64,000 bases of DNA from an uncultured Gammaproteobacteria bacterium (GTDB lineage: Bacteria; Patescibacteriota; Microgenomatia; CAZETR01; Amesbacteraceae). A program made the translations under genes and the position numbers. The DNA is taken from the NCBI GenBank assembly GCA_964518565.1, contig CAZFGX010000001.1, forward strand, positions 524,470-588,469. The letters run 5' to 3'. The notes below the pieces were generated by a model. The model was not told the origin of the DNA and made no database searches. It saw only the letters and a program-made list of their open reading frames with translations. Positions 3,652-23,191 of the stretch are shown one piece after another (positions within the stretch are counted from its first letter, which is position 1; each line of letters begins with the position of its first letter).

Positions 3652-4625
3652 AAAGCGTTTTGTATTACTCCAGAAATAAAATCTGCATAGCCCATACCTG
3701 CCAATTCACACGAATGGGTTAGTCCACCATCTTCATCCCAACCCACACCAGGATTATTGTTTATTTCCAAAACATATATCTGACCATTTTGAATTCGCAT
3801 ATCAATCCTGGGATAGCTTCGTCCGCCCAACCAGCGATAACACTCTACAGCCACCTGTTTCATTTTGTCCTGCACAGCTTTATCTAACACATCATCTTGC
3901 CATTGCGTCATATTTGCTTCCCAGCTATCAGACTTCCACTTAGCATCATAAGTCATAATCGGCACATAATGTTCCTTTTTTTCGTAACCAAAAATTGCTG
4001 GTGGCAAGGCTACTGGTTCACCTTGCTGTTCAATAACCGTCACAAATCCTTCCAAACCATCAATAAATGTCTCCGCAATCACCGGCTGATCAAACCTTCG
4101 CACTAAAATATCCGCTTTCCCCAACAAATCATCAGGTTTATTCACCACACTCTCTTGGGTTATACCGATTCCACAATGTTCATATGCTGGCTTCAAAATT
4201 ACTGGAAAATCCAACTTACCACCTCGCTCATCTCCACCACCAAACACACGCCATCCAGCAGTTGGAATATGATGTTTTTCAAATAGTTTTTTCATTAATA
4301 CTTTATTACTTGAGACCTCGTACCCCCACGAACCAGAACCAGTAAAACGAATTCCGGCAGATTCTAAAGTTTCGAGCACTGCTACTCCATGCTTCCAATC
4401 CTTGCCAGTCCATTCCACTAAATTAAATACCAAATCACAACTTAAACTACCCAGAATGCTTATATCAAACATTCCAATACCCTTCATTTCAACCCGATGA
4501 CCTAGTTGCTCCAATACCGACTTTACCTGTAAAGCAGACTGCATAGTATCATCATCAGACTCTGAAATATTTTTCGTTGAAGATGATCCAATTTGATTAT
4601 ATAAAACTACAATATACATGTACAC
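3648..4625 (-). CDS. ATP-grasp ligase, D-Ala-D-Ala-ligase-like (paralog of downstream gene)
   Basis: 'PVILKPAYEHCGIGI', 'ETFIDGLEGFVTVIE' and 'YVLEINNNPGVG' follow the Ddl-type ATP-grasp C-terminal pattern. Confidence 0.7.
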   Translation of the reverse strand: MYMYIVVLYNQIGSSSTKNISESDDDTMQSALQVKSVLEQLGHRVEMKGIGMFDISILGSLSCDLVFNLVEWTGKDWKHGVAVLETLESAGIRFTGSGSWGYEVSSNKVLMKKLFEKHHIPTAGWRVFGGGDERGGKLDFPVILKPAYEHCGIGITQESVVNKPDDLLGKADILVRRFDQPVIAETFIDGLEGFVTVIEQQGEPVALPPAIFGYEKKEHYVPIMTYDAKWKSDSWEANMTQWQDDVLDKAVQDKMKQVAVECYRWLGGRSYPRIDMRIQNGQIYVLEINNNPGVGWDEDGGLTHSCELAGMGYADFISGVIQNAL

Positions 4626-6542: not shown

Positions 6543-7511
6543 TTAATCTTTTAAAGCTGGATGAAATTTTCTATGTGTCTCTTCAGCATAGCGATCTGAT
6601 GCATGAACATAACGAGTTGTTGTATCTAACGATTCATGACCCAACAAAAGTTGTATCGCCGCCGGATTTGCACCATTTTCAGCTAAATATGTGGCAAATC
6701 CATGTCGCAGCGAATGAGCGGAAGTTGGGACATTGATCCGCAGTTTCTCACGATATTGTTTGATCTTCATCTGTAAATAATTGGTCGATATTCTTCGCGT
6801 AGTTTTGGAGGCATTATTCCCCCGCAGGGGGACAAACATTGCTGGACTGGAATCTGACCTAGTAGCTAAATATTTCTCTAAATGCTCAGTAGCTCGTGGT
6901 GTCAAATAAGCAAATCGTTCCTTTTTTCCTTTTCCACGTATGAAAAGTCTACCTGAGCCATCCAATTGAGTTCGATTTAATGACACCAACTCAGAAATAC
7001 GCATACCAGTAGAAAACAAGACTTCCAAAATCGCTCGATTTCGCAAACCCACAACCTGGTCAGGTTCAAATTCTACTGGCGATTCAACTAAACGTAACAA
7101 ATCACCAAGCTCAGCCACTTGTGCGTGCTTACGATCAGTCTTTACCATAGCAATAGCATCTGGCGGAATTGGCACCGGCTGGTCAATATCAATTAAATAA
7201 CGAAAATAGGTTCGCAATGCCGACAATACTCGGTTAACTGACCTAGGTTCCAGCTTATCAACCGCTGTAATCCCCGTAATCGGCCGTTTTCTATCCTTGC
7301 TGACTAAGTATGCCTTATAAAGGTTTAGGGACTGTTTATTTAGCTTGTAAAACTCTAAATTTTCCTCCTGTAAAAAATGTTCGAAAGTTTTTAAATCTGA
7401 TTCGTAGTTATACAAAGTTTCTTCGGAATAATTTTGGGTCTTTAGATAAAGCAAGAATTCATCCAAATAGGGCAAAAGGTTCAATCGAACAGATTCAGGC
7501 AGGGAAGTCAT
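6543..7511 (-). CDS. tyrosine site-specific recombinase, XerC/XerD-like
   Basis: N-terminal SAM-like 'LDEFLLYLKTQNYSEETLYNYESDLKTF'. Catalytic 'HSLRHGFATYL...LLGHESLDTTTRYVHAS' carries the R-H-R-Y signature. Confidence 0.8.
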   Translation of the reverse strand: MTSLPESVRLNLLPYLDEFLLYLKTQNYSEETLYNYESDLKTFEHFLQEENLEFYKLNKQSLNLYKAYLVSKDRKRPITGITAVDKLEPRSVNRVLSALRTYFRYLIDIDQPVPIPPDAIAMVKTDRKHAQVAELGDLLRLVESPVEFEPDQVVGLRNRAILEVLFSTGMRISELVSLNRTQLDGSGRLFIRGKGKKERFAYLTPRATEHLEKYLATRSDSSPAMFVPLRGNNASKTTRRISTNYLQMKIKQYREKLRINVPTSAHSLRHGFATYLAENGANPAAIQLLLGHESLDTTTRYVHASDRYAEETHRKFHPALKD

Positions 7512-11021: not shown

Positions 11022-11725
11022 TACATCGAGTGTACCAGTCGAGACAGGGTTGGAGCTAGATCAAAAGGCAACGGTGAATCAAAAGTCATCAATGTTCCGG
11101 TCACTGGGTGCGTAAATTCTAGTTGCGTTGCATGTAAGAATAAGCGTGGACAAAAAACCAAATCCTCCTTCAACCATTTTCGCCATCCATAAATAGGGTC
11201 TGAAACAATCGGATGGCCCATATGTTGCAAATGAACTCGTAATTGATGTGTTCTTCCTGTATGAGGTTTCAATTCCACCAAACAATAATCGACATAGGTC
11301 TCTTTGACTCGCCATTCTGTGATCGCCATTCGACTTAAGTCGGTACCGATAGCAAATTTGCTCTTATTTTTTGAATAACGTTCAATCGGTAAAGAAACTA
11401 TGCCCTGTGATTCTTTTAGTGTGCCATGCACCAAAGCCAAATACGTCTTTTGAGTTTTTCGCTCCAAAAATTGCTGTTTCAATCCTTCATATGCTTCAAG
11501 TGTTTTTGCCAGAACCATTACTCCACTCGTGTCCTTATCCAATCGATGCACGATTCCACCTTTTTGCCAAAATTCCGTCATTGTATCAGCTGCAACCAAA
11601 CGTGAAACAAACCATTGTTGAAGCGTCACATCTTTTACTGAATCAGCATTATTTACGACGATTCCTCCTGGCTTATCCACAACACACAAGTACTCATCCT
11701 CAAAAATCACTCGGATATCGATCAT
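11021..11725 (-). CDS. RluA-family pseudouridine synthase
   Basis: 'VVDKPGGIVV', 'HRLDKDTSGVMVLAK' and 'KTYLALVHG' are RluA/RluD catalytic motifs. The start is probably the internal Met at 11725 (MIDIRV). Confidence 0.8.
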   Translation of the reverse strand: MIDIRVIFEDEYLCVVDKPGGIVVNNADSVKDVTLQQWFVSRLVAADTMTEFWQKGGIVHRLDKDTSGVMVLAKTLEAYEGLKQQFLERKTQKTYLALVHGTLKESQGIVSLPIERYSKNKSKFAIGTDLSRMAITEWRVKETYVDYCLVELKPHTGRTHQLRVHLQHMGHPIVSDPIYGWRKWLKEDLVFCPRLFLHATQLEFTHPVTGTLMTFDSPLPFDLAPTLSRLVHSM

Positions 11726-12081
11726 TTTTCTTTTTTCTTTTCGCAGTCCACACAAACAGTCGTTTCAGGCATAACCATCAAACGATCTGTATCAATCATC
11801 TTTCCACAACGCTCACAAATACCATAATTACCCAGCTTAATTCTTGTCAGAGCTTTTCGAATCTGAATAATGCGTCGATCCACTGCAGTTCGCAACGCTG
11901 AAGCTTGCATATGCCCCACTTCTTCCATAGCCTCATCTCCTATATCTGCGTTTCCCACCAATCGACTCGTATCTCGTGCTGGATCAGCCGCCAAAATCTC
12001 TTTTCGTCGTTTCAATAAACCTTTCAGTTTTTCGGTTAAATGCTCAGCAACTGGTTTTAACAAATTTTGTGGATATTTCAT
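11722..12081 (-). CDS. DksA/TraR-family C4 zinc-finger protein
   Basis: C-terminal 'CERCGKMIDTDRLMVMPETTVCVDC' four-Cys finger, preceded by a coiled-coil region. Confidence 0.7.
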   Translation of the reverse strand: MKYPQNLLKPVAEHLTEKLKGLLKRRKEILAADPARDTSRLVGNADIGDEAMEEVGHMQASALRTAVDRRIIQIRKALTRIKLGNYGICERCGKMIDTDRLMVMPETTVCVDCEKKKEK

Positions 12082-12651: not shown

Positions 12652-13218
12652 TTATTTTACTCGTTCCGCGTAAGATCCGTCACGGGTATCAATAAGTACT
12701 TTTTCACCTTCTTCAATAAACAAGGGCACTTTAACAGTCATCCCATTATCCAAAACAGCACTTTTATACAAGTTAGACACACTATTACCTTTTACTCCTG
12801 GATCAGTTTGGGCAATAGTAAATTGCATTTTTGGTGGCAGTTCAACACTCAAAGCGCGCTCCTCCCAAAAAAGAATATTTACCGTAATTCCTTCTACCAA
12901 ATAGGCTGCCTGTTCTCCGACGTCTTCAGGAGAAATTGCCACTTGCTCGTAAGTCTTAGGATCCATAAAAGCAAATCCTTCACCATCTTTATATAAATAC
13001 TGCATTGGCTTACGCATCAGATCGATCACATCTACCCGAGCTGAATTTACAAAAGATTTTTCTACGATTGCTCCACTGAGCAAATTTCGCATTTTTATCT
13101 TGATTGTGGCCGATCCCCGACCCATTTTTATATGTTCATATTTCAATCCCACCCATGGCTGGCCATCCAGCAAAAAAGCTGTCCCGTTTCGAATATCTTG
13201 TACACCAATTTGCGCCAT
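12652..13218 (-). CDS. efp: translation elongation factor P
   Basis: 'IRNGTAFLLDGQPW...KMGRGSATIKIKMRNL' and 'KPMQYLYKDGEGFAFMD' match EF-P over its full length. Confidence 0.9.
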   Translation of the reverse strand: MAQIGVQDIRNGTAFLLDGQPWVGLKYEHIKMGRGSATIKIKMRNLLSGAIVEKSFVNSARVDVIDLMRKPMQYLYKDGEGFAFMDPKTYEQVAISPEDVGEQAAYLVEGITVNILFWEERALSVELPPKMQFTIAQTDPGVKGNSVSNLYKSAVLDNGMTVKVPLFIEEGEKVLIDTRDGSYAERVK

Positions 13219-13481: not shown

Positions 13482-13566
13482 GCCGAAGTGGTGGAATGGT
13501 AGACACGCAGGTCTCAAAAACCTGTGAGCCCTAAAGCTCATGACGGTTCGAGTCCGTCCTTCGGCA
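13482..13566 (+). tRNA. tRNA-Leu(CAA), type II with long variable arm
   Basis: Acceptor GCCGAAG/CTTCGGC. Anticodon stem CAGGT/ACCTG with loop CTCAAAA gives anticodon CAA. The variable arm is ~17 nt and the T-arm is GGTTCGAGTCC. CCA is not encoded. Confidence 0.85.
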
Positions 13567-13700
13567 CAAGCTTGAAATATCCTATAGTTTGTAATAAAAT
13601 AGCTTCAGTTGTAATCTGTGACAGTCTCAAGCAGGCCTACTCACAAATTACCCGTTTTTAGTAGTTCTTTCAAAAATTGCAGAGAATAAGGAGTATTTGT

Positions 13701-14051
13701 ATGAAAATCACATTTGCAAATATTAATGAAGTGTTCGCTCAGTTGAGCAAGATGTTGGATGGCCACAATTACCAAATTGTTACCACACAACAAAGCCAAC
13801 CAACCCAAACTCAAAAGTTTCAGGCACCCAACACCAAGTTGCAGCTCGGACAAGAAGGTTGCGACAACCCAACTTGGAAACAAATCAACGGCTATCAGAA
13901 TGATGACTGGAAATGGGGCTTTAGCGTTTTTGAAACCGATGAAGGAATGAAAAGGGAAAACCCATTCATCGTCTTCGAGACCAAGAAGGCCGTCATCACC
14001 GTCAAACAAGAAGGCTTCCATGATCAAATATTAGAAATAGCCGCAATCTAA
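13701..14051 (+). CDS. small-protein paralog family member A (cassette 1)
   Basis: AAGGAG Shine-Dalgarno 10 nt upstream. N-terminal 'ITFANINEVFAQLSKML'. 'WKWGF...KRENPFIVFETKK' is shared with member C. Confidence 0.55.
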   Translation: MKITFANINEVFAQLSKMLDGHNYQIVTTQQSQPTQTQKFQAPNTKLQLGQEGCDNPTWKQINGYQNDDWKWGFSVFETDEGMKRENPFIVFETKKAVITVKQEGFHDQILEIAAI

Positions 14052-14067
14052 ATCCGCAAGGAGGAAA

Positions 14068-14424
14068 ATGGCTCAAACAATCAAAACTAGTCCTGAGAAT
14101 GCACTTCAAATAGTCACACAAGTTGCAAATCAATTCTCCGGAAAACCCTACGATCTAACCACGATTGTTTCGGGGCAGCAAAATCGACACGCAAAAATAA
14201 CCAAATCAAGCATTTTGCTAGAGTTCGATGGAATACATGCAATAAAAATAATTGCAAATGATAGCGCTCTAGACAAAATCCCTATATGGGAAGTTCATGT
14301 GTATCCCGAGAATTCACCAAATTTCCACAAAAACCCCTCAATCACTTTCGACAAAAAAGATTGTGTAATTGATTGGGTAGACGAATTTGAACGACACGTA
14401 ACATATATCCTGAGAAATCTTTAA
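14068..14424 (+). CDS. small-protein paralog family member B (cassette 1)
   Basis: AAGGAGGA Shine-Dalgarno. N-terminal 'KTSPENALQIVTQVANQF' and 'NPSITFDKKD' motifs. Confidence 0.55.
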   Translation: MAQTIKTSPENALQIVTQVANQFSGKPYDLTTIVSGQQNRHAKITKSSILLEFDGIHAIKIIANDSALDKIPIWEVHVYPENSPNFHKNPSITFDKKDCVIDWVDEFERHVTYILRNL

Positions 14425-14442
14425 ACTCTGCAGTTTATCCCT

Positions 14443-14471
14443 AGCGCCGGTCACCCCGGCGCTTTTTTTTG
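14443..14471 (+). terminator. rho-independent terminator (cassette 1)
   Basis: Stem AGCGCCGG/CCGGCGCT with loop TCACC, followed by T8. Confidence 0.75.
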
Positions 14472-14546
14472 GGAATTACTAGCCAAAAAGAGTAAAATAC
14501 ACTCCCCTGTTCGTACTTTGACAAATACGTGAGTATAGGAGGTTAT

Positions 14547-14912
14547 ATGACTTCAACTAGGTCAGTAAGACTAAGCTTGGATAATAAATTTGAGTTATTA
14601 CAACAACTTCGAAACCATTTTCCAACCGACTATCAATATACATACACCATGAATGGCCAACTGGTCGAATCAAAAATAGTCAAATCCCGATTTGTACTCA
14701 AAACTTTTGAAAACAATGATGGTTGGTGGTACTTATTTGCTCTAGATGACAAAAATGATATTCAGTGGGGTTTCTTTTTTGTCAATGAAAAGACAACAGC
14801 CAGAAAAAGAAACCCAGTTTTCTTATTCACTGACGAAGGAATTCTTATTCACTTCGAGTTAAAAACCAGAGATAGATTGGAATACAAATTAGAAAAAATA
14901 AAGGAGAAATAG
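14547..14912 (+). CDS. small-protein paralog family member C (cassette 2)
   Basis: AGGAGG Shine-Dalgarno then ATG at 14547. 'IQWGFFFVNEKTTARKRNPVFLFTDEG' parallels member A. Confidence 0.55.
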   Translation: MTSTRSVRLSLDNKFELLQQLRNHFPTDYQYTYTMNGQLVESKIVKSRFVLKTFENNDGWWYLFALDDKNDIQWGFFFVNEKTTARKRNPVFLFTDEGILIHFELKTRDRLEYKLEKIKEK

Positions 14913-14913
14913 T

Positions 14914-15252
14914 ATGGAACAGATACAAATTACCCCCGGAAACGCTAAAGAAATTGCGACCAAGTTACAGCAACTACTTCAAAATCGACAATTTCGATTT
15001 CGGTTTTATCGAAACAGTATTCAAGAAAAAATTCTCGCCAACACATCATTGGCAGATACAAACTCCTTGCTTGTAGACAATCCCTCTGACCCACACGCAC
15101 TTCATATTCATCTGGCAAACGAGTCACTCATATTGGTTCTCGCATTTTTCTACACCCTAAAAGTCACGGCCAACCCCGTCGTTATCACAGTCACAAGCAT
15201 GGCCATGCGTCATCACCCGACAATGATGTATGAGTTTGAAATCTTGCCGTAA
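14914..15252 (+). CDS. small-protein paralog family member D (cassette 2)
   Basis: AAGGAG Shine-Dalgarno. N-terminal 'ITPGNAKEIATKLQQLL' and 'NPVVITVTS'. Confidence 0.55.
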   Translation: MEQIQITPGNAKEIATKLQQLLQNRQFRFRFYRNSIQEKILANTSLADTNSLLVDNPSDPHALHIHLANESLILVLAFFYTLKVTANPVVITVTSMAMRHHPTMMYEFEILP

Positions 15253-15265
15253 ATAAGGAGAAAAT

Positions 15266-15622
15266 ATGCAACAGTCAATACTATTGAATGCACAAACATG
15301 CGAATCAATTATTCAAGAGTTAATTAGCCGTTTAAATACAAAAACATTCTCCTACACTTTTCTAGACCCAGACAATACGATCACTGAACATGTTGCAAAC
15401 CTTCAATTAAGACCAAACGTTCCAAATCCAATCATGTATGGAGAACACTGTTTCATCATTGCACTGGCAGGGACAAAAAGTATTTTTGTCCGTCCTGAAA
15501 AAGATGACTCGGTAATGTTCAATTTCTTAGAAGATGAATCAGTAGTAATTGTAAACAGATCCAATCAAAAACAATTCAAATTGGTTATTCTCTCGGGAGG
15601 CAAGCATGCAAGTAGCAGCTGA
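15266..15622 (+). CDS. small-protein paralog family member E (cassette 2)
   Basis: AAGGAG Shine-Dalgarno. N-terminal 'LLNAQTCESIIQELISRL' and 'DSVMFNFLEDE'. Confidence 0.55.
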   Translation: MQQSILLNAQTCESIIQELISRLNTKTFSYTFLDPDNTITEHVANLQLRPNVPNPIMYGEHCFIIALAGTKSIFVRPEKDDSVMFNFLEDESVVIVNRSNQKQFKLVILSGGKHASSS

Positions 15623-15935
15623 AGATACCTTAAAAGTAATTCGAATTGTCCGTGGTTGGTTGAAAGATACAAAAGTATCTGTCAAACACACCCAAAATAA
15701 TGGTGATGTCGATCAAACCCAAGATGTCACAATTTCAGGCAACCAAATCAGCTTCTCTCGTAGCCCAGTGTTTATGGAAAATATGTTCATCCACATTGGA
15801 AACTGGACGGCTGTTCTATATCCAAGATCTGCCAAAGATAAACAAACGACCATTGAAACCTCAAAGACACACATGACGATTGTCGTCAAAAACAAAAGTG
15901 GTGAAGAAACTTGGGTATTTGCACCCATGGAGTAA
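15606..15935 (+). CDS. small-protein paralog family member F (cassette 2)
   Basis: GGGAGG Shine-Dalgarno. Overlaps E by 17 nt. 'SPVFMENMFIHIGNW' is a weaker N-terminal motif match. Confidence 0.5.
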   Translation: MQVAAEDTLKVIRIVRGWLKDTKVSVKHTQNNGDVDQTQDVTISGNQISFSRSPVFMENMFIHIGNWTAVLYPRSAKDKQTTIETSKTHMTIVVKNKSGEETWVFAPME

Positions 15936-15954
15936 TCATCAAGACAAATCCCCT

Positions 15955-15982
15955 AGCGCCGGTCACCCCGGCGCTTTTTTTA
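15955..15982 (+). terminator. rho-independent terminator (cassette 2), near-identical copy of the 14443 terminator
   Basis: Same AGCGCCGG-TCACC-CCGGCGCT hairpin plus T-run. About 32 nt are identical to the first copy including flanks. Confidence 0.75.
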
Positions 15983-16069
15983 TTTTCATAAATAACCTAT
16001 AATAATAATTTCGGGGCAACAGCTGTCCCAAATTTTGTACATTCATAAATTACATAAGGAGAAAATCGT

Positions 16070-16414
16070 ATGGCTGATGTGCTAGTTCTTAGTCCAAATA
16101 CCGTCGCTGAAATCGTCGACAAAACTCGTAAACTACTCGATCAAAAGAAGTTTGATTACACCAAACGCCCAATCAAAATCACACACGACTCGCCGCCCAT
16201 AATCTTGTATAACGTGAGTCTAAATCCACAGAGAAGTTATGGTCGCCATCCGGTGTATATGGTCAGTGACAACATTTTAAGTTTCCTATACATCCATTTT
16301 AGCGAAAGCACTATATCACTTAGTTCTAGACAAGTAGTTGTCTTTGAATTTGAGTCAAACCAACTACGAATCAAAACTAAGTATGCTGAGCAGACTTTCA
16401 CTATCCAGGAGTAA
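16070..16414 (+). CDS. small-protein paralog family member G (cassette 3)
   Basis: AAGGAG Shine-Dalgarno. 'LSPNTVAEIVDKTRKLL' and 'HPVYMVSDN'. Confidence 0.55.
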   Translation: MADVLVLSPNTVAEIVDKTRKLLDQKKFDYTKRPIKITHDSPPIILYNVSLNPQRSYGRHPVYMVSDNILSFLYIHFSESTISLSSRQVVVFEFESNQLRIKTKYAEQTFTIQE

Positions 16415-16417
16415 ATT

Positions 16418-16741
16418 ATGACAGCACTAGTAGTCGGTCCCCAAAACACCTGGTACAGTCTCGAACGCGAGAATTTACCACTTTGGGTGTTCATGAACCA
16501 ACATCTATCCTGTTTACGTAAATTTACCCTAGATACCCTGATCGAAATCGAATATCTGCTTCATCACCAAAATCTGTGTATCTCAGAGACTAGTCCTTGG
16601 CAAGTTCTTGACCAACTCCGACAAGGCCTCTGCCTACTGGGTATTTCCGACATCGATGTTGGTCTTGAAGAAGCTCGAACGAAGTTTGCCTTATGTGATC
16701 CAAACACGTTTAAGGTCAGATTAGAAAAACATCTGATCTAA
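16418..16741 (+). CDS. small protein H (cassette 3), possible divergent family member
   Basis: AGGAG Shine-Dalgarno. Similar size. 'GPQNTWYSLERENL' and C-terminal 'DPNTFKVRL' give weak family resemblance. Confidence 0.45.
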   Translation: MTALVVGPQNTWYSLERENLPLWVFMNQHLSCLRKFTLDTLIEIEYLLHHQNLCISETSPWQVLDQLRQGLCLLGISDIDVGLEEARTKFALCDPNTFKVRLEKHLI

Positions 16742-16751
16742 ACCGCATCCC

Positions 16752-16781
16752 AGCGCTTTGATAATTCAAAGCGCTTTTTTT
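16752..16781. terminator. bidirectional rho-independent terminator (cassette 3 / dnaB convergent)
   Basis: Stem AGCGCTTTG/CAAAGCGCT with loop ATAATT, T7 on the + strand and an A-run on the other side. It lies between convergent genes. Confidence 0.65.
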
Positions 16782-18102
16782 ATTCCTTACGTTTTGTCTC
16801 TACGCCATAAAACCGTACCTTATCACCCTTGAACCGTAGCTTGACAGACCCCACCGCACCATTGCGATGTTTGGCCACATCCAGTGTCATATTTTCCAAA
16901 TCCTCATCATTTTCTCGCCACAAAAACATGACCACGTCAGCGTCTTGTTCAATTGCCCCAGATTCACGCAAATCAGCCAATTGTGGTCGTTTTACGCCTC
17001 GAGACTCCACATTACGTGACAACTGAGACAACGCCAATACTGGTATTTTTAATTCCCGAGCCAAATTTTTTAATCCTTGAGAGATTTCAGACACTTCCTG
17101 CACCCGACTATCCATATTTCGACTTGGCCGTGCCAATTGCAAATAATCCACCACGATCAAGCGCAATCCATGTTCTGCCTGCAATCTTCGTGCCTTAGTG
17201 CGCATCTCAAGTATTGAAATGCCTGGGGTATCATCAATATATAGCGGCGTTTCATACAACTCACCCATAGCATCAGACAAACGTGTGAATTCATTTTCAT
17301 CCATTCGACCAGTTTTCATTTTCCAAGCATCAATTTCGGCATGCGACACCAACAACCGATCGATCATTTCTTCTTTACTCATTTCCAAAGCAAAAAAACC
17401 AACAGGAAGTTTGTGGTGAAATGCTGCATTGTGTGCCACATTCAAGGCAAGGGCTGTCTTTCCCACACCAGGTCGCGCAGCCAAAATCAGTAAATTTGAA
17501 TCCTGCATTCCCGCCAACATATTATCCAGCTGAGTAAATCCTGTTGGCACACCTCGCAACCCTCCAGCTGATTTATGCAATTCATCCAATCTATCAAATG
17601 AATCCGCCAAAATATCTTTTACCGGCACGAAAATTTGCTTCAAATGTTGTTGCGACAGAGCAAATACCGACTGCTCAGCTCCATCCAAAATCTCCCGTAC
17701 ATTTTTACTTTCATCAAATGCCAGATCAGTAATTTTTGTCGCCGAAGAAATTAATTGACGTTTTGTGTAATCATCTTTTACCAAATGGGCATAATGTGCT
17801 GCATGTGCTGCCGTAGGCACTCCATTTACTAATTCAGTTAAATATTCGCTCCCACCGATTTCTGTCAGTGTTTTTAATTTTTTTAACCGCTCCGTCACAG
17901 AAACCACGTCCACTGGCTCACGATCTTGATACAAATCAACTACCGCCTGGAATACACGCTGATGTCGAGGATCATAAAAATGCTCCGGACGCAAAAATTC
18001 TACCACCTCAACTACTGCATCACGATCAATGAGTACCGCACCTAAAACCGATTGTTCAGCCACATCGGAGTGTGGCGGAACTTTTGCTTTTTCCTGCGCC
18101 AT
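16780..18102 (-). CDS. dnaB: replicative DNA helicase DnaB
   Basis: N-terminal 'PHSDVAEQSVLGAVL', Walker A 'ARPGVGKTALAL' and 'LIVVDYLQL' match DnaB over its full length. Confidence 0.9.
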   Translation of the reverse strand: MAQEKAKVPPHSDVAEQSVLGAVLIDRDAVVEVVEFLRPEHFYDPRHQRVFQAVVDLYQDREPVDVVSVTERLKKLKTLTEIGGSEYLTELVNGVPTAAHAAHYAHLVKDDYTKRQLISSATKITDLAFDESKNVREILDGAEQSVFALSQQHLKQIFVPVKDILADSFDRLDELHKSAGGLRGVPTGFTQLDNMLAGMQDSNLLILAARPGVGKTALALNVAHNAAFHHKLPVGFFALEMSKEEMIDRLLVSHAEIDAWKMKTGRMDENEFTRLSDAMGELYETPLYIDDTPGISILEMRTKARRLQAEHGLRLIVVDYLQLARPSRNMDSRVQEVSEISQGLKNLARELKIPVLALSQLSRNVESRGVKRPQLADLRESGAIEQDADVVMFLWRENDEDLENMTLDVAKHRNGAVGSVKLRFKGDKVRFYGVETKRKE

Positions 18103-18114
18103 ACCCGGAATATA

Positions 18115-18753
18115 CTATTTCTTCTCCATGACCACCACTGTCAATTCAGTCGGCAGCTTATCAGCACTAATCGAATACTTTGCCACAGGCACAATTTCAG
18201 TTTTTCCTATTTCCTTCAAAAAATCCTCTACTCCAGCCAGCGTCGCAGGCAAAACAATTCCTGCCTGATGATAATGCATAGGAATTACTACCCACGGATC
18301 AATCTGTTTTACTACTTCGACTGCAGTCTTTGCATCGATCGTATACACACCCCCGACAGGAATCAGCAATATATCCACGTTACCCATCTCATCTAATTGT
18401 GCTTGGGTCAATTTATGACCCAAATCCCCCAAATGTGCCACTCTCAAACCATCCATCTCTACTACATAAATTGTATTTGTTCCTCTCTCAGCTCCGTTCT
18501 GGTCATCGTGAAAGCTCGCCACTCCTACAATAGAAATTCCTTTTACTTCATACTCACCCGGACCATCGATCAAAAAACCAGCTTCTACATTCTTAATATC
18601 GTTGTGATCTGGGTGTCCGTGAGATACAGTCAAAATATCTGCTTGGATATCTTTGGGGTATTTACCAAAATCTCCTCCATATGGATCCATAGCCACTGCC
18701 CCAAGTTTTCCCTTGAGTCGAAATGACGCATGACCTAAATACACAATATCCAT
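18115..18753 (-). CDS. metallo-beta-lactamase-fold hydrolase (UPF0173-like)
   Basis: 'SHGHPDHN', 'VAHLGDLGH' and 'MHYHQ' match the MBL-fold hydrolase pattern. The internal Met 'MDIVYLGHASF' is the probable start. Confidence 0.65.
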   Translation of the reverse strand: MDIVYLGHASFRLKGKLGAVAMDPYGGDFGKYPKDIQADILTVSHGHPDHNDIKNVEAGFLIDGPGEYEVKGISIVGVASFHDDQNGAERGTNTIYVVEMDGLRVAHLGDLGHKLTQAQLDEMGNVDILLIPVGGVYTIDAKTAVEVVKQIDPWVVIPMHYHQAGIVLPATLAGVEDFLKEIGKTEIVPVAKYSISADKLPTELTVVVMEKK

Positions 18754-18822
18754 ACCAAGCCCCAGGATACCAGAGCCATGTTGACCTTGACAAGGGTAAG
18801 ACACATTGTTAATCTCCAAACC

Positions 18823-19290
18823 ATGGGAAAAGAAGTTGTCTTGGCCATTGCTATCGGATTTGCCGTAGGTATCGTGATTACATTTGGTATTTGGACCGCC
18901 AACAAAAGCTTAAAAAATCTTCCCACCGCCAACAATCCCACGCCCACTCTTACCGCTACTTCACCCAATCCTACTTCAAGTACTTCCATCTCACCAACTC
19001 CGGCCTCTAGCACTACCACCAACAGTTCTCTCACTATTGAAACTCCTGAAGACGAATTACTTACTGATAAATCCACTGTTACTGTTTCTGGCAAGACCGT
19101 CCCCGGCGCCCAAGTAGTTGTTCTCGCAGAAAAAAATGAATATATTGTCACGGCTGACCAAGCAGGTAAATATACAGCCGATGTTTCACTAGACGGTGGG
19201 TATAACACGATAACAGTTACATCCTATGACAAAACTGGCACATCTTCATCCCAATCAATTACTATAACGTTATCCACAGCAAAAATATGA
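18823..19290 (+). CDS. membrane-anchored Ser/Thr/Pro-rich surface protein
   Basis: N-terminal TM 'VVLAIAIGFAVGIVITFGIW', a T/S/P-rich linker, and a C-terminal Ig-like beta-rich region. Confidence 0.4.
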   Translation: MGKEVVLAIAIGFAVGIVITFGIWTANKSLKNLPTANNPTPTLTATSPNPTSSTSISPTPASSTTTNSSLTIETPEDELLTDKSTVTVSGKTVPGAQVVVLAEKNEYIVTADQAGKYTADVSLDGGYNTITVTSYDKTGTSSSQSITITLSTAKI

Positions 19291-19911: not shown

Positions 19912-20679
19912 GTGAGCGCAATTATCTCCGTCAAAAATCTGGTCAAATCGTACAAAGACTCTTCGACCAAGGCTGTTGATCAGATTTCTTTCTCTGTAAA
20001 ACCTGGCGAATTTTTTGCATTACTCGGTCCCAACGGTGCGGGCAAAACCACTACCATATCTATTTTGACCACTACACTGGCCAAAACCACTGGCGAAGTC
20101 AAAATCGCCGGTCTAGATATGGATACTCACAGTAGTCAAATCCGTAAAAATGTCGGCATTATTTTCCAAAACCCCAGTTTAGATCTCAATCTCACTGCCG
20201 AAGAAAATATTCGCTTTCATGCAGTCTTATATGGGTTGTATCAATACAAACCTTTTTATTCAATGATGTCCAATCAATACAAAAACCAGGTTCAAGAATT
20301 GGCCAATGTAATCGGTCTAACACCCACCGACTTGTCTAAACCAGTCAAAGCATTATCAGGCGGCATGAAACGCAAACTTGAAATCATTCGCAGCCTGATG
20401 CACAAACCTAAAGTCTTATTTTTGGACGAGCCGACCTCCGGTCTAGATCCCCTATCCCGAAAAAATCTTTGGGATTATTTAGACATGATCCGCAAACATG
20501 ATCAAACCACTATTTTTTTAACCACTCATTATCTTGAAGAGGCTGAAGGCACCGATACTGTCTGTATACTCAAGCAAGGCAAAATAGTCGCCCAAGGATC
20601 TCCTACGAAAATCAAAAAAGACTTCGCAGCCAAAAATAGTTCTCTAGAGCAAGCTTATCTAAAAATTATTCAAGAATGA
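19912..20679 (+). CDS. ABC transporter ATP-binding protein
   Basis: Walker A 'GPNGAGKTT', signature 'LSGGMKRKLE' and Walker B 'LFLDEPTSGLD'. GTG start. Confidence 0.85.
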   Translation: MSAIISVKNLVKSYKDSSTKAVDQISFSVKPGEFFALLGPNGAGKTTTISILTTTLAKTTGEVKIAGLDMDTHSSQIRKNVGIIFQNPSLDLNLTAEENIRFHAVLYGLYQYKPFYSMMSNQYKNQVQELANVIGLTPTDLSKPVKALSGGMKRKLEIIRSLMHKPKVLFLDEPTSGLDPLSRKNLWDYLDMIRKHDQTTIFLTTHYLEEAEGTDTVCILKQGKIVAQGSPTKIKKDFAAKNSSLEQAYLKIIQE

Positions 20680-21458
20680 AACACCAACTAAATGCCCTAC
20701 TCGCTATTGCTGCTCGCGATATCACCAAGTTTTTGCGTGATCGCCCCCGATTAATCATCACATTCGTGTTTCCATTTGTGTTTATAGGAATCCTCGGTGG
20801 TAGTCTACAGGCCAATCTAGGACAATACTTGGGCTACAACTTTCTCGTGTTCTCATTTATTGGTGTAATCGCTCAAACATTGTTTCAATCTACTGCTTCA
20901 GGGATAATTTCATTAGTTGCAGACAGAGAGTCGGATTTCTCACAAGAAATCTTTGTCTCACCCATTTCGCGCTACACGATCATCTTTGGCAAAATTTTAG
21001 GTGAATCGACTATCGCATTTGTCCAAACACTTGGCATAATTTTGTTTGGAATTGTCACAAAAATCCCTTTTGATTTATCCCGGGTTATCTCCCTCTTACC
21101 ATTTGCTTTCCTAATCTGTTTATTCGGTGGAGCCTTTGGCGTCATAGTCATGTCAAAGCTTTCTGGACAACGTACGGCCAACCAAATATTCCCATTTATC
21201 ATTTTCCCCCAATTTTTCCTCGCCGGTGTCTTTAATCCCATCACCAATCTCCCTCCACACCTATATATCCTCTCTCGTCTTGCCCCAATGACCTATGCTG
21301 TCGACCTACTTCGCAGTGTATATTACAACGGTCTCCCAGAATCCTCCAAAACCACGCTCTACCACCCACTAATAAACGTCCTAGTAATTCTAATCCTGTT
21401 TGTCATCATGCTCACCATTGGCACGTCTCTGTTTGTCCAAAACGAACGCAACCGCTAA
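20676..21458 (+). CDS. ABC-2-type exporter permease
   Basis: Six TM segments after an N-terminal 'ARDITKFLRDRPRL'. Overlaps the ATPase gene by 4 nt. Confidence 0.7.
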   Translation: MKHQLNALLAIAARDITKFLRDRPRLIITFVFPFVFIGILGGSLQANLGQYLGYNFLVFSFIGVIAQTLFQSTASGIISLVADRESDFSQEIFVSPISRYTIIFGKILGESTIAFVQTLGIILFGIVTKIPFDLSRVISLLPFAFLICLFGGAFGVIVMSKLSGQRTANQIFPFIIFPQFFLAGVFNPITNLPPHLYILSRLAPMTYAVDLLRSVYYNGLPESSKTTLYHPLINVLVILILFVIMLTIGTSLFVQNERNR

Positions 21459-21532
21459 ACTCCACACTATAGGTCAAAAATGGTATAATCTCCTTGTTCT
21501 TTGACATTCAAAAAAGTAGGTTTGGAGGTTAT

Positions 21533-22066
21533 ATGAAAATACAAGATTTTCGCTTGTTTACGATCCTTTTTTGCTTATTAGCCTGTTTCGGAGTTCTCAT
21601 ACTAACTGGACCACCACACATATTTCTATCCATTGGCTGTTTTGTTGGTGGATTTGGCCTATATCTAGGCAACATCAGAAAAAACCAGTCGACAATATCT
21701 CTCTGTACAATTGGTCTTACTTTGACAACCACGAGCTTGGTTTTGACTGAAATGCATCGGAATTTCTATCAAAACTCAGGAGTTATCACAATCCAGCTTT
21801 CAATCGCCAGAACGCTCATGTGTCCAATTGGGCTATTGGCCATATATGACTGTTTGGTCAAAACTCAAAAACAAAAACATGTAGGTTTGATCATTACTAG
21901 CTGCATGCTGGTTTGGTTTTGCCTACCAATCATCTTCATCAATCCACAGATCTTCGCCATCAGCCTGGCCACAATAGCAGTCCAAAACCTGCTACAAATT
22001 TTCGTTCTGTGGCTAATTTATTCCGACATGAGAGTGAAACACAAGGAGATGTATGAAAAACTTTAG
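21533..22066 (+). CDS. polytopic membrane protein (1 of 3 tandem, ~180-190 aa)
   Basis: GGAGG Shine-Dalgarno before ATG at 21533. About 5-6 hydrophobic helices. Confidence 0.4.
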   Translation: MKIQDFRLFTILFCLLACFGVLILTGPPHIFLSIGCFVGGFGLYLGNIRKNQSTISLCTIGLTLTTTSLVLTEMHRNFYQNSGVITIQLSIARTLMCPIGLLAIYDCLVKTQKQKHVGLIITSCMLVWFCLPIIFINPQIFAISLATIAVQNLLQIFVLWLIYSDMRVKHKEMYEKL

Positions 22067-22616
22067 ATTTTCTGGAGCCCGCGAAGCGTTTATTCTTCTC
22101 AGTCTCGTCGCTACCTTTATTTTATTAGTGAAAGCTGCCGTTGCAGCCGTAGAATCTCCTGCATATACGACAATAAACATTCTAATGATTTTTGTCGTTT
22201 TTTGCGCCATGAATTTAGGACCTCTTCCATGGCCATATCGCAAATATCAAAAAACCGTAGGCTATGTGATCTTTCTTTGCATTACTGTAGTTGTCCTAAT
22301 ACTCGAAGCCTGGATGAAAATCCAAAATCAGACATTGGGACTTGAATACATCATTATTTGTCGAGCCATATTGGCCCCGACAAGTTTACTGGTAATTCGT
22401 CAGCAAACATTTAGTCAAAAAAAACCAGTCTCGCCCTATCTTGTACCCACAATGGCGTTGCTGTTGTATGTGACCACATTGTTACCATCGCTTATTGGTT
22501 TGAGTGTCATAACCTCAAGCGACAGGTTAACAGATATGACGGTCTATGGCTTTATTGTTCAGGGATCGATTATCCTCATTTTCACTGGAGATTTAGTATT
22601 ACAAGATAAGGTGTAA
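22053..22616 (+). CDS. polytopic membrane protein (2 of 3 tandem)
   Basis: Overlaps the previous gene by 14 nt. Similar size and topology. Confidence 0.4.
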   Translation: MKNFRFSGAREAFILLSLVATFILLVKAAVAAVESPAYTTINILMIFVVFCAMNLGPLPWPYRKYQKTVGYVIFLCITVVVLILEAWMKIQNQTLGLEYIIICRAILAPTSLLVIRQQTFSQKKPVSPYLVPTMALLLYVTTLLPSLIGLSVITSSDRLTDMTVYGFIVQGSIILIFTGDLVLQDKV

Positions 22617-22618
22617 TT

Positions 22619-23191
22619 ATGATAATCAAAAACGTGAACCTACTCCTCTCCCAAATTGGCGCTCTGCTTATTTTTGTCACTGGCATAGTCGTCTACGTAA
22701 TGACTACTAGTCAAGAAGCTGCCATTTGTTTTTCGATCGCGACAGCCATTTGTGGCTTCGTCAATCTGCAAATCTACAAAACCAATCAAGCGCTCAGATC
22801 CCAGATAGATCTACAAGGTTATGAGCATCCAGCATTGACCGCCATGCTGTTATTTATCGCCTTTGTCTTTGCGTTCTTAGGAGTTCAAACTCAAAACAAA
22901 GACATAAGTCCATCATTACTCTCACTGCAAAATGCGTTTGTGCCAATTATCTGTATGGTTACAGATATGAATCTGCACAAACTCCATTACCTTCGTCAGT
23001 TTGAGTACATGTCATCTTTACCTATCCTACTAGCCTGTCTACCTCTGTGGATCTTTATCGTTCTCCTCACCGGAAATCTCGACTGGTCCGATCCGACACG
23101 TCTATGCCTATATGGCTACTGCATCGGCAGCATTCTAGTCGAAATTAGTTATTTGTTTCGGACTTCTACCCATTCGCGGGTAAAAAACTAA
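22619..23191 (+). CDS. polytopic membrane protein (3 of 3 tandem)
   Basis: Starts 3 nt after the previous stop. Similar size and topology. Confidence 0.4.
   Translation: MIIKNVNLLLSQIGALLIFVTGIVVYVMTTSQEAAICFSIATAICGFVNLQIYKTNQALRSQIDLQGYEHPALTAMLLFIAFVFAFLGVQTQNKDISPSLLSLQNAFVPIICMVTDMNLHKLHYLRQFEYMSSLPILLACLPLWIFIVLLTGNLDWSDPTRLCLYGYCIGSILVEISYLFRTSTHSRVKN

What the first reader, a model, noticed from the sequence alone, without database searches (positions are those of the whole stretch)
13482..16790. Tandem array of eight diverged small-protein paralogs in three terminator-closed cassettes, immediately 3' of tRNA-Leu
**What the sequence shows.** Directly after tRNA-Leu(CAA) there are eight same-strand ORFs of 107-121 aa. 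Each has a canonical Shine-Dalgarno (AAGGAG, AGGAGG or GGGAGG) 6-10 nt before its ATG.
- Spacing within cassettes is tight: 1 nt, a -17 nt overlap, and 3 nt.
- The grouping is [A,B] terminator, [C,D,E,F] terminator, [G,H] terminator.

**Shared protein features.**
- An N-terminal helix motif of the form [IL]-x-[ILVT]-x-P-x-N-[AT]-x-E-I-[AV]-x-x-[LV]-x-x-L-L. Examples: ITPGNAKEIATKLQQLL, KTSPENALQIVTQVANQF, LSPNTVAEIVDKTRKLL, LLNAQTCESIIQELISRL, ITFANINEVFAQLSKML.
- A later strand-like motif N/H-P-x-[FVIY]-x-[FV]-[TSE]-[DE]. Examples: NPFIVFETKK, NPVFLFTDEG, NPVVITVTS, HPVYMVSDN, NPSITFDKK, SPVFMENM.
- Members A and C also share 'W[KQ]WGF...KR(E)NP'.
- Everything else has diverged.
- None has a signal peptide or TM segment, and no known domain is recognisable to me.

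**Interpretation (inference).** This is a rapidly diversifying multi-copy family parked at a tRNA integration hotspot. That organisation is reminiscent of orphan immunity-protein arrays, anti-defence arrays or other conflict-system cargo. However, no toxin, integrase or phage structural gene is adjacent. The function is unknown, so this could be a novel system.
Basis: partly seen in the sequence, partly recalled or inferred. Interest (0 to 1): 0.8.

Follow-up and report, generated by a model that had tools for sequence, protein, structure and literature searches.

The report
Strain-variable array of small YojF-fold proteins
Between tRNA-Leu and the dnaB helicase gene, this tiny uncultured bacterium (Candidatus Amesbacteria) has eight real small genes; seven belong to a previously undescribed paralogous family predicted to fold like the uncharacterised Bacillus protein YojF, and the set differs sharply between close strains, but its function is still unknown.

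Summary
The eight ORFs, their Shine-Dalgarno sites and the three terminators are real. The genes are under purifying selection (dN/dS 0.05-0.39 against sister strains).

Paralogy holds for A, B, C, D, E and G. It is weak for F and absent for H.

Among 1.84 billion representative proteins, the family occurs only in this species-level lineage.

The dnaB to tRNA-Leu interval is a variable slot in relatives (6-2130 bp, unrelated content). Close strains show a mosaic:
- DnaB is 100% identical while F is 98%, C/D/E are 79-87%, H is 60% and G is 46%.
- One strain replaces cassette [A,B] with [B', X131, X111] between conserved flanks.

There is no integrase next to the array (the nearest recombinase gene is 6 kb away behind syntenic housekeeping genes), and no att repeat, toxin or phage signal.

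Best reading: a lineage-specific accessory array of small soluble binding-type proteins, built by tandem duplication and reshuffled by recombination. A conflict or immunity-like role is plausible but unproven.

The parts
13482..13567 (+). tRNA-Leu(CAA). It is the conserved left anchor of the variable slot.
   Evidence: ARAGORN and Rfam at 60 bits. The same tRNA flanks the slot in 17 or more relatives. No direct repeat of its 3' end occurs in the window.
13572..13600 (+). Promoter-like site upstream of cassette 1 (TTGAAA-17-TAAAAT). It is a candidate only.
   Evidence: The number of such sites in the region does not exceed shuffles (11 found against 10.7 expected). The tRNA-to-A spacer is about 90% conserved in strain L043.
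13701..14051 (+). Gene A (116 aa), family member of subfamily 1.
   Evidence: AAGGAG lies 6 nt upstream. hhalign A-B 77% and A-C 57% over about 95 columns. The ortholog P0015 in L043 is 63% identical, with dN/dS 0.39.
14068..14424 (+). Gene B (118 aa), the most central family member of subfamily 1.
14439..14469 (+). Terminator T1. It is copy 1 of the identical 31-nt hairpin plus T-run repeat and closes cassette [A,B].
   Evidence: Predicted RNA fold about -16 to -19 kcal/mol. A 90% identical copy closes the alternative cassette 1 in L039.
14469..14498 (+). Promoter-like site upstream of cassette 2 (TTGGGA-18-TAAAAT). It is a candidate only.
   Evidence: The region upstream of C is 75% conserved in L041 although the coding DNA there does not align.
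14547..14912 (+). Gene C (121 aa), family member of subfamily 1.
   Evidence: SD is TAGGAGG. Orthologs are 83% (L038) and 38% (P0009) identical; dN/dS 0.11.
14914..15252 (+). Gene D (112 aa), family member of subfamily 2.
   Evidence: 1-nt gap after C. hhalign D-E 77% and B-D 64%. The subfamily-1 HMM hits the D ortholog at E = 4e-4 among 4417 ORFs. dN/dS 0.18.
15266..15622 (+). Gene E (118 aa), family member of subfamily 2.
   Evidence: hhalign D-E 77% and E-G 48%. Ortholog is 87% identical; dN/dS 0.10.
15606..15935 (+). Gene F (109 aa), probable remote family member.
   Evidence: 17-nt overlap with E; SD is GGGAGG. hhalign against the core family gives 32% probability, E = 4.7e-4, 78 colinear columns. 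Smith-Waterman z = 3.7 against G. Leave-one-out HMM z = 0.5. Orthologs are 98% and 45% identical.
15951..15981 (+). Terminator T2. It is copy 2 of the identical 31-nt repeat and closes cassette [C,D,E,F].
16070..16414 (+). Gene G (114 aa), family member of subfamily 2.
16418..16741 (+). Gene H (107 aa). It is unrelated to the family, its residue pattern suggests a helical protein, and its start is tightly spaced after G.
   Evidence: No similarity to A-G by Smith-Waterman, HMM or hhalign. It is a real gene: the ortholog in L038 is 60% identical with dN/dS 0.14. It lies 3 nt after G here and overlaps G by 4 nt in L038.
16752..16782 (+). Terminator T3. It closes cassette [G,H] and lies in the convergent gap before the 3' end of dnaB.
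   Evidence: 10-bp stem plus T-run, -15.4 kcal/mol.
16780..18102 (-). dnaB replicative helicase. It is the conserved right anchor of the variable slot.
   Evidence: Pfam DnaB and DnaB_C. 77-81% identical in Amesbacteria MAGs. 100% amino-acid identity over 261 aa in strain L038.
12652..13218 (-). EF-P gene, a conserved housekeeping neighbour on the tRNA side.
   Evidence: Pfam EFP domains. Syntenic in relatives.

Best explanation
**What it is**
- The 3.2-kb stretch between tRNA-Leu(CAA) and dnaB is a strain-variable accessory slot in a Candidatus Amesbacteria (CPR/Patescibacteria) chromosome.
- Here it holds three terminator-closed operons: [A,B], [C,D,E,F] and [G,H].

**Shown**
- All eight genes are real and under purifying selection.
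- A-E and G belong to one lineage-specific paralogous family of small soluble proteins of about 115 aa; F is a probable member.
- The predicted fold is beta1-alpha1-beta8. It is YojF-like and resembles PH-like beta-sandwiches.
- H is an unrelated small protein, helical by residue pattern, whose start is tightly spaced after G.

**Inferred: how the array arose**
- It grew by tandem duplication of gene-plus-terminator units. Two terminators are still 31/31 identical.
- It is now reshuffled between co-existing strains by homologous recombination anchored in conserved flanks: the tRNA, the promoter regions, the terminators and dnaB.
- The result is whole-cassette or allele replacement rather than point-mutational positive selection.

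**Inferred, low confidence (about 0.25-0.3): what it does**
- The proteins act as non-enzymatic, specific protein- or ligand-binding modules.
- They would form a repertoire of neutralisers or adaptors of the immunity/antitoxin type. G-H, and perhaps C-D and E-F, would be cognate pairs.
- Strain-to-strain variety would be maintained by frequency-dependent conflict with competing cells, hosts or phages.
For: **Real genes**
- SD sites precede all eight starts. These account for 8 of the 13 SD-preceded + strand ATGs in 64 kb.
- There are three terminators.
- Orthologs give dN/dS 0.05-0.18 (C, D, E, F, H against L038), 0.39 (A) and 0.27 (B).

**Family**
- Leave-one-out HMM z = 4-19 for A, B, C, D, E and G.
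- hhalign: A-B 77%, D-E 77%, B-D 64%, B-G 50%.
- Among 4417 ORFs of 123 loci, the A/B/C profile's only outside hits are D and G orthologs (4e-4, 9e-4).
- In the same test, the D/E/F/G profile's only outside hits are B' and X111 (5e-6, 4e-4).

**Fold**
- The B model has pLDDT 89.5 and pTM 0.80. The G model has pLDDT 72.8 and pTM 0.71 with the same element order.

**Lineage restriction**
- phmmer against 1.84e9 representatives found only the 8 self clusters plus 4 relatives.
- No member occurs in 116 other Microgenomates dnaB loci.

**Variable slot**
- The dnaB to tRNA-Leu interval is 6-2130 bp with unrelated content in relatives.

**Mosaic**
- L038 against the window: DnaB 100% aa (dS 0.32); F 98% (dS 0.14); C/D/E 79-87% (dS 0.7-0.8); H 60% (dS 2.3); G 46% (dS saturated).
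- L043 against the window: A 63% (dS 0.56) next to B 97% (dS 0.04).
- L039: the flank is 89% identical, then [B' 37%, X131, X111] stands in place of [A,B], ending in a 90% identical terminator.
- In the ERZ27250730 lineage the order is C'->E' and D'->F'.

**Soluble, non-enzymatic look**
- There is no TM segment, pI ranges from 5.3 to 9.1, and only Y28 and N89 are invariant in subfamily 1.
- Tight start spacing at C-D, E-F and G-H is read directly from the sequence.
Against: - No partner (toxin, effector or secretion system) was identified near the array. I scanned ORFs across roughly 0-29 kb of the window.
- There is no similarity to any known immunity, antitoxin, defence or anti-defence family.
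- The closest structure, YojF, has no known function, so the fold gives no functional transfer.
- 1:1 orthologs in conserved order between the window and L038, under purifying selection, also fit fixed subunits of a complex.
- The duplication and recombination scenario rests on only 3-4 fragmentary sister-strain contigs.
- F's membership is weak.
- The G model has a low-confidence stretch (residues 56-71).
- Codon-usage support for the reading frames is below that of housekeeping genes, and near zero for H.
Confidence: 0.55

Rival explanations
1. The paralogs are fixed subunits or adaptors of one hetero-oligomeric accessory complex. This would be a lineage-specific cellular machine rather than a conflict repertoire. 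Each paralog would have its own maintained role, and tightly spaced neighbours would assemble co-translationally.
For: - 1:1 orthologs in the same order C-D-E-F-G-H occur in strain L038.
- Every gene is under purifying selection.
- Tight start spacing: a 1-nt gap, a 17-nt overlap and a 3-nt gap.
- PH-like and YojF-like folds are typical protein-protein interaction scaffolds, and YojF crystallised as a homodimer.
Against: - The family is absent from all other Amesbacteria/Microgenomates at this locus, and from 1.84e9 representatives beyond one narrow lineage.
- Cassette 1 has different membership in L039, and the order differs in the ERZ27250730 lineage.
- Divergence between adjacent genes differs enormously (F 98% against G 46%). 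That is unexpected for co-adapted subunits of a single complex.
Confidence: 0.2
2. The array is cargo of a degraded mobile element or prophage that integrated at tRNA-Leu, for example anti-defence or superinfection-exclusion genes.
For: - It lies next to a tRNA gene.
- The slot's occupancy varies between genomes.
- The genes are small ORFans with weaker codon-usage fit than core genes.
Against: - There is no integrase next to the array. The only tyrosine recombinase is 6 kb away, behind syntenic housekeeping genes.
- There is no direct repeat of the tRNA 3' end.
- GC content (0.37-0.42) is like the rest of the window.
- There are no PHROGs hits, no tblastn hit in 50,697 phage genomes, none in IMG/VR for B or F, and no significant BFVD fold match.
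Confidence: 0.1
3. The genes are nucleic-acid- or replication-associated small proteins that act with the neighbouring DnaB helicase.
For: - The array is convergent with dnaB and ends 5 bp from it.
- yojF is listed among genes co-evolving with polC in Firmicutes (PMC3814617).
Against: - Relatives with 77-81% identical DnaB lack the family entirely.
- pI values span 5.3-9.1 with no shared basic surface signature.
- The DNA-enzyme fold hits are weaker than the YojF hit and comparable to generic PH-like hits.
Confidence: 0.07
4. The ORFs are not a family at all. They would be unrelated ORFans, or partly spurious ORFs, that merely share size and composition.
For: - Within-genome pairwise similarity is near noise. 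The best phmmer E-value is 0.01-0.1 against the 278 window ORFs.
- There are no invariant columns across all eight.
- H and F are not recovered by leave-one-out profiles.
Against: - Once orthologs are added, cross-validated profiles connect the subfamilies specifically.
- Two independent AF2 models share topology and the same top PDB hit.
- dN/dS well below 1 shows they code for protein.
- This rival holds only for H, which is real but unrelated.
Confidence: 0.05

Closest known systems
YojF / DUF1806 (Pfam PF08830; PDB 1NJH, Bacillus subtilis)
   Same: - Size is about 115 aa, and the protein is soluble.
- The order of elements is the same: a short N-terminal strand, one helix, then an all-beta body.
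- Its function is unknown too.
   Different: - No sequence relationship is detectable. There is no Pfam hit at E <= 1, the profile against PDB sequences finds nothing, and hhalign against a 120-member YojF alignment gives under 2% probability.
- Every YojF-family hit that carries an organism name is from Bacilli, mostly Bacillales, and all are 114-125 aa. The family here is a multi-copy, strain-variable array in a CPR bacterium.
Orphan immunity-gene arrays of polymorphic toxin systems (CDI/Rhs/T6SS orphan modules, acquired interbacterial defence clusters). This comparison is from my own general knowledge.
   Same: - Tandem, same-strand, small cytoplasmic proteins that are diverged paralogs.
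- Content differs between close strains.
- Allele replacement by recombination, with purifying selection within each allele.
   Different: - No toxin gene, toxin C-terminal fragment, Rhs/CdiA/LXG/WXG element, secretion system or recombinase lies next to the array.
- No match to any Pfam immunity family.
- Such systems are not established in Amesbacteria.
tRNA-linked genomic islands
   Same: - It sits beside a tRNA gene.
- Occupancy varies among relatives.
   Different: - No integrase lies next to the array.
- No att direct repeat.
- No compositional shift.
- It is only 3.2 kb.
- Variation appears to arise through homologous recombination between conserved flanks, not site-specific integration.
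PH-like fold domains (PH, PTB, EVH1, Ran-binding) and the NucS / Fpg N-terminal beta-sandwiches
   Different: - The helix is N-terminal rather than a C-terminal cap.
- Scores are well below the YojF match.
- These hits are weaker or absent for the G model.

Membership tests
YojF / DUF1806 (PF08830) | Sequence match to the family profile | tested here: not met
   There is no PF08830 hit for any of A-H at E <= 1. NCBIfam gives none at E <= 10. hhalign of the core, sf1 and sf2 alignments against 120 YojF homologs gives probabilities of 0.1-1.4%. The single YojF sequence against A3 and A4 gives 0.1-0.4%.
YojF / DUF1806 (PF08830) | Same three-dimensional fold as 1NJH | tested here: met
YojF / DUF1806 (PF08830) | Distribution and copy number (a 114-125 aa protein of Bacilli) | tested here: not met
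   Of the 935 YojF homologs found (120 listed), every hit that carries an organism name is from Bacilli, mostly Bacillales. Here there are 6-7 copies in tandem in a Candidatus Amesbacteria genome. Single-copy status in Bacillales was not tested here.
Orphan immunity arrays of polymorphic toxin systems | Adjacent or nearby toxin gene, toxin fragment or delivery system | tested here: not met
   Pfam scans of 30 neighbouring ORFs (window about 0-29 kb) show housekeeping, transporter and protease genes only. The rest of the 1.0-Mb genome was not available.
Orphan immunity arrays of polymorphic toxin systems | Match to a known immunity protein family | tested here: not met
   There is no Pfam, NCBIfam or PADLOC hit.
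Orphan immunity arrays of polymorphic toxin systems | Tandem diverged paralogs whose content varies between close strains | tested here: met
Orphan immunity arrays of polymorphic toxin systems | Protein neutralises a cognate toxin | not testable with these tools
   This needs co-expression or binding assays.
tRNA-integrated genomic island / prophage remnant | Integrase next to the tRNA | tested here: not met
   No recombinase lies between the tRNA and dnaB. The nearest is at 6543-7511, beyond the syntenic genes for YebC, TPR, LytR_C, RluA, DksA and EF-P.
tRNA-integrated genomic island / prophage remnant | Direct repeat of the tRNA 3' end marking the far boundary | tested here: not met
   The 23-nt 3' end of the tRNA occurs once in 64 kb at up to 3 mismatches. 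No such repeat was found by the repeat finder.
tRNA-integrated genomic island / prophage remnant | Phage or plasmid homologs of the cargo | tested here: not met
   PHROGs give none at E < 0.02. tblastn against the phage collection gives none. IMG/VR gives none for B or F. BFVD gives no fold match at E <= 1e-3.
Integron gene-cassette array | intI next to an array of single promoterless ORFs, each followed by an attC site | tested here: not met
   There is no adjacent integrase. Units hold 2-4 ORFs. The only repeated element is a GC hairpin plus T-run typical of intrinsic terminators, present twice. No attC model was run.
Known anti-phage defence systems | Match to a PADLOC-DB protein model | tested here: not met
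   There are zero hits at E <= 1 for all eight proteins.
PH-like fold superfamily | Seven-stranded beta-sandwich capped by a C-terminal helix | tested here: inconclusive

The most novel reading that the evidence does not exclude
The array is a CPR-specific conflict module of a new type. It would be a recombining repertoire of YojF-fold binder proteins. Some would be paired with unrelated partners such as H. Whole cassettes would be swapped between co-existing strains, using the conserved terminator hairpins, promoter regions, tRNA and dnaB as homology anchors. The repertoire would give strain-specific protection (immunity or anti-effector) against competitors, hosts or phages. This would also provide the first functional handle on the orphan YojF fold.
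Probability: 0.15. Interest if true: 0.7.

Novelty: new variant of a known kind. Interest (0 to 1): 0.5.

Why it matters
**Why it could matter**
- CPR/Patescibacteria genomes are small, and a large share of their genes are hypothetical. It is largely unknown which genes differ between co-existing strains and why.
- This locus is a clean, compact example of a protein family with no sequence relatives outside one lineage.
- The family has a confidently predicted fold shared with the long-uncharacterised YojF.
- It sits in a defined recombination slot between two core genes, and adjacent genes have strikingly different divergence histories.
- If the proteins prove to be specific binders or immunity-type factors, they would point to inter-strain or symbiont-host conflict mechanisms in CPR. 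They would also suggest a role for the YojF fold.

**Why it may be ordinary**
- If they are not such factors, this remains a well-documented but ordinary strain-variable islet of lineage-specific small proteins.

Tried and rejected
**Searches that did not work or could not run**
1. A concatenated A-H query in the search for homologous proteins returned nothing, not even self hits. I take this to be a tool artefact, probably a coverage filter. The same concatenation worked in the exhaustive representatives search.
2. The first coordinates I used for A and C were off by one and were corrected.
3. The AFDB50 fold library was unavailable.

**Searches that came back empty**
6. Pfam, PHROGs, PADLOC and NCBIfam gave only sub-threshold noise.
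7. PDB sequence profile searches found nothing relevant.
8. A metagenome dnaB scan gave 80 loci, all at or below 84% DnaB identity, and none held family members. It added no sister strains.
9. Literature searches for YojF, DUF1806 and Patescibacteria variable regions gave no functional information.

**Ideas considered and rejected**
10. Integron cassettes, prophage remnant and tRNA island were considered and rejected (see the membership tests).
11. Positive selection was considered. Whole-gene dN/dS is 0.05-0.39. Only one 30-codon window, in A, reaches about 1.2, which is not significant evidence.

Full report
**1. The observation**

ARAGORN and Rfam place a single tRNA-Leu(CAA) at 13482-13567. 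Downstream on the same strand lie eight ORFs:

| Gene | Coordinates | Length |
|---|---|---|
| A | 13701-14051 | 116 aa |
| B | 14068-14424 | 118 aa |
| C | 14547-14912 | 121 aa |
| D | 14914-15252 | 112 aa |
| E | 15266-15622 | 118 aa |
| F | 15606-15935 | 109 aa |
| G | 16070-16414 | 114 aa |
| H | 16418-16741 | 107 aa |

- Each start has AAGGAG, AGGAGG or GGGAGG 5-9 nt upstream. In the whole window only 13 of the 812 + strand ATGs have AGGAG/GGAGG at -16 to -5, and eight of those are these starts.
- Hairpin plus T-run terminators follow B, F and H. They fold at about -15 to -19 kcal/mol.
- The first two terminators are an identical 31-nt repeat (14439-14469 and 15951-15981) that occurs nowhere else in the window.
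- The grouping [A,B] / [C,D,E,F] / [G,H] and the tight spacings (1 nt, 17-nt overlap, 3 nt) are therefore correct.
- The proteins are soluble, with no 19-residue hydrophobic window of TM strength, and pI from 5.3 to 9.1.

**2. Are they genes?**

A codon model trained on the window's long ORFs favours the annotated frames only modestly: 0.06-0.20 nats per codon against 0.24 for core genes, and about 0 for H. Comparison with sister strains is decisive.

- A 3-kb NCBI metagenome contig (L038) carries C-D-E-F-G-H-dnaB in the same order. Nei-Gojobori dN/dS is 0.11, 0.18, 0.10, 0.05 and 0.14 for C, D, E, F and H.
- A Logan contig (L043) carries A and B, with dN/dS 0.39 and 0.27.
- All eight are therefore protein-coding and under purifying selection.

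**3. Are they paralogs?**

Within the genome the similarity is marginal.
- Smith-Waterman z-scores are 4.3-4.8 for A-B and B-C, 4.4 for D-G, 3.7 for F-G and 3.2 for B-G. H is at or below 1.9 against every other member.
- Against the 278 six-frame ORFs of the window, cross-subfamily hits sit at noise level.
- Leave-one-out profiles recover A, B, C, D, E and G (z = 4-19) but not F (0.5) or H (0.2).

Adding orthologs changes the picture.
- hhalign of mini-profiles gives A-B 77%, A-C 57%, D-E 77%, B-D 64%, B-G 50% and E-G 48%. It also links two further members, X131 and X111, from another strain.
- In a background of 4417 ORFs from 123 loci, the A/B/C-type profile's only hits outside its own members are the D and G orthologs (E = 4e-4 and 9e-4).
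- In the same background, the D/E/F/G-type profile's only outside hits are B' and X111 (5e-6 and 4e-4).
- F aligns colinearly to the core family at 32% probability (E = 4.7e-4, 78 columns). H does not align.

Conclusions on membership and motifs:
- There are six firm members and one probable member (F). H is a different protein.
- The 'NP' motif is positionally equivalent only in A-D.

**4. Structure**

- AlphaFold2 on B, with a 7-sequence alignment, gave pLDDT 89.5 and pTM 0.80. The elements are strand 3-6, helix 12-23, then eight strands.
- G, with a 9-sequence alignment, gave pLDDT 72.8 and pTM 0.71, with the same order of elements and one low-confidence stretch at 56-71.
- The shared top hit is independent support that the two subfamilies have one fold.
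- Sequence membership in YojF/DUF1806 fails. There is no Pfam hit and no PDB profile hit. hhalign against a 120-member YojF alignment gives under 2%.
- YojF itself has no assigned function in the literature I could search.
- No significant match exists in predicted viral structures.

**5. Distribution**

- DnaB identifies the organism as Candidatus Amesbacteria (Microgenomates, CPR). It is 77-81% identical to Amesbacteria MAGs.
- The source contig is 1,001,365 bp.
- An exhaustive phmmer of the concatenated eight proteins against 1.84 billion cluster representatives found only their own clusters plus four relatives at 37-51% identity.
- All of those trace to short contigs of close strains.
- None of the 116 dnaB loci from other Microgenomates genomes or metagenomes holds a member.
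- Phage genomes and IMG/VR hold none.

**6. The locus is a variable slot**

- The synteny MBL-hydrolase, dnaB, [interval], tRNA-Leu(CAA), (EF-P), membrane protein, DksA, RluA is conserved across Amesbacteria, Collierbacteria and Shapirobacteria.
- The interval ranges from 6 to 2130 bp. It holds unrelated things: small TM proteins, an AbrB/PIN-like pair, and superoxide dismutase. Here it is 3212 bp.
- There is no integrase in or beside the interval. The one tyrosine recombinase in the region lies 6 kb away behind syntenic housekeeping genes.
- There is no repeat of the tRNA 3' end and no GC anomaly.

**7. Strain mosaic**

Against L038:

| Gene | aa identity | dS |
|---|---|---|
| DnaB (C-terminal 261 aa) | 100% | 0.32 |
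| F | 98% | 0.14 |
| C | 83% | 0.82 |
| D | 79% | 0.68 |
| E | 87% | 0.73 |
| H | 60% | 2.3 |
| G | 46% | saturated |

- Synonymous divergence even swings within genes, with pS from 0.05 to 0.86 in 30-codon windows.
- Against L043, A is 63% identical (dS 0.56) beside B at 97% (dS 0.04).
- In L039 the EF-P/tRNA flank is 89% identical to the window. After the tRNA come B' (37% to B), X131 and X111, and then a terminator 90% identical to the window's repeat.
- In contigs from the same sample, C' is followed by an E-like gene and D' by F'.
- The regions upstream of cassettes stay alignable (75-90%) where coding DNA does not.
- The simplest reading is repeated homologous recombination or allele replacement using conserved non-coding and core flanks, not accelerated point substitution.
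- G and H diverge together as a unit.

**8. Mechanism**

Shown:
- A lineage-specific, paralogous, YojF-fold small-protein family in three operons.
- It occupies a recombination-prone accessory slot.

Inferred:
- The array grew by tandem duplication of gene-plus-terminator units. The evidence is the identical 31-nt terminators flanking genes that are no longer alignable as DNA.
- Cassettes are exchanged between strains.

Function is not established. The following features are most compatible with specific binder or neutraliser proteins maintained under frequency-dependent selection (immunity/antitoxin-like), and I put that at roughly 0.25-0.3:
- A non-enzymatic look, with only two invariant residues in subfamily 1.
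- A PH-like/YojF-like interaction scaffold.
- Tightly spaced neighbour pairs.
- Co-divergence of G with the unrelated H.
- A strain-level mosaic.

A fixed hetero-oligomeric accessory complex is the main rival (about 0.2). Mobile-element cargo (about 0.1) and DnaB/nucleic-acid-associated roles (about 0.07) have little support.

**9. Verdict**

- The 'conflict cargo' interpretation remains a hypothesis.
- The family is new at the sequence level, has a known but functionally orphan fold, and sits in a familiar kind of variable islet that lacks the usual island or toxin hallmarks.
- Interest is moderate. It is a good, tractable candidate, but not demonstrably a new system.

Noticed in passing
window 21494-23191 (+): Three tandem multi-TM ORFs of about 190 aa (190, 187 and 190 aa) lie directly downstream of an ABC-2 transporter pair (19912-21458). 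They have no Pfam hit and no blastp similarity to each other. They may be another set of same-sized diverged neighbours.
   Followed up: partly
window 2617-4625 (-): Two adjacent D-Ala-D-Ala-ligase-like ATP-grasp genes (344 and 325 aa) sit next to a SET-domain protein (2132-2611) and an amino-acid permease.
   Followed up: no
window 6543-7511 (-): A tyrosine recombinase (Phage_integrase plus SAM-like N-domain) lies 6 kb from tRNA-Leu. Syntenic housekeeping genes separate it from the tRNA. It is probably Xer-type rather than an island integrase, but this was not tested.
   Followed up: partly
window 1-64000: GC skew is negative in every 1-kb bin (-0.03 to -0.37), so the whole window lies on one replichore. 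The A-H array is transcribed opposite to most of the surrounding genes.
   Followed up: no
L042 1-24 (ENA ERZ27250730 k119_50886): The contig begins with the Illumina adapter sequence CCCTACACGACGCTCTTCCGATCT. The apparently truncated N-terminus of the D-like protein P0012 is therefore an assembly artefact.
   Followed up: yes
L037, L126, L124, L125 (Logan contigs): Contigs of the same strain end at or within the 31-nt repeated terminator or start just after it, so each cassette was assembled as a separate unitig. Short-read assemblies will systematically fragment this locus.
   Followed up: yes
L009 11356-12022; L016/L019/L022/L024/L030 about 11300-11940: The same dnaB to tRNA-Leu slot holds an AbrB/PIN-like two-gene pair in one Amesbacteria MAG and an Fe/Mn superoxide dismutase in the Collierbacteria-type loci (two named Collierbacteria, three other MAGs). 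Several Amesbacteria carry small single-TM ORFs of 50-70 aa there with a shared 'KYR(L/V)xG' motif.
   Followed up: partly
window 18778-19290 (+): A 170-aa ORF beside the MBL-fold hydrolase carries precomputed Glucodextran_B / Big_6 hits in the identical Logan contig annotation. This suggests a surface Ig-like protein. It overlaps an alternative - strand ORF (18735-19208) listed by the ORF finder.
   Followed up: no
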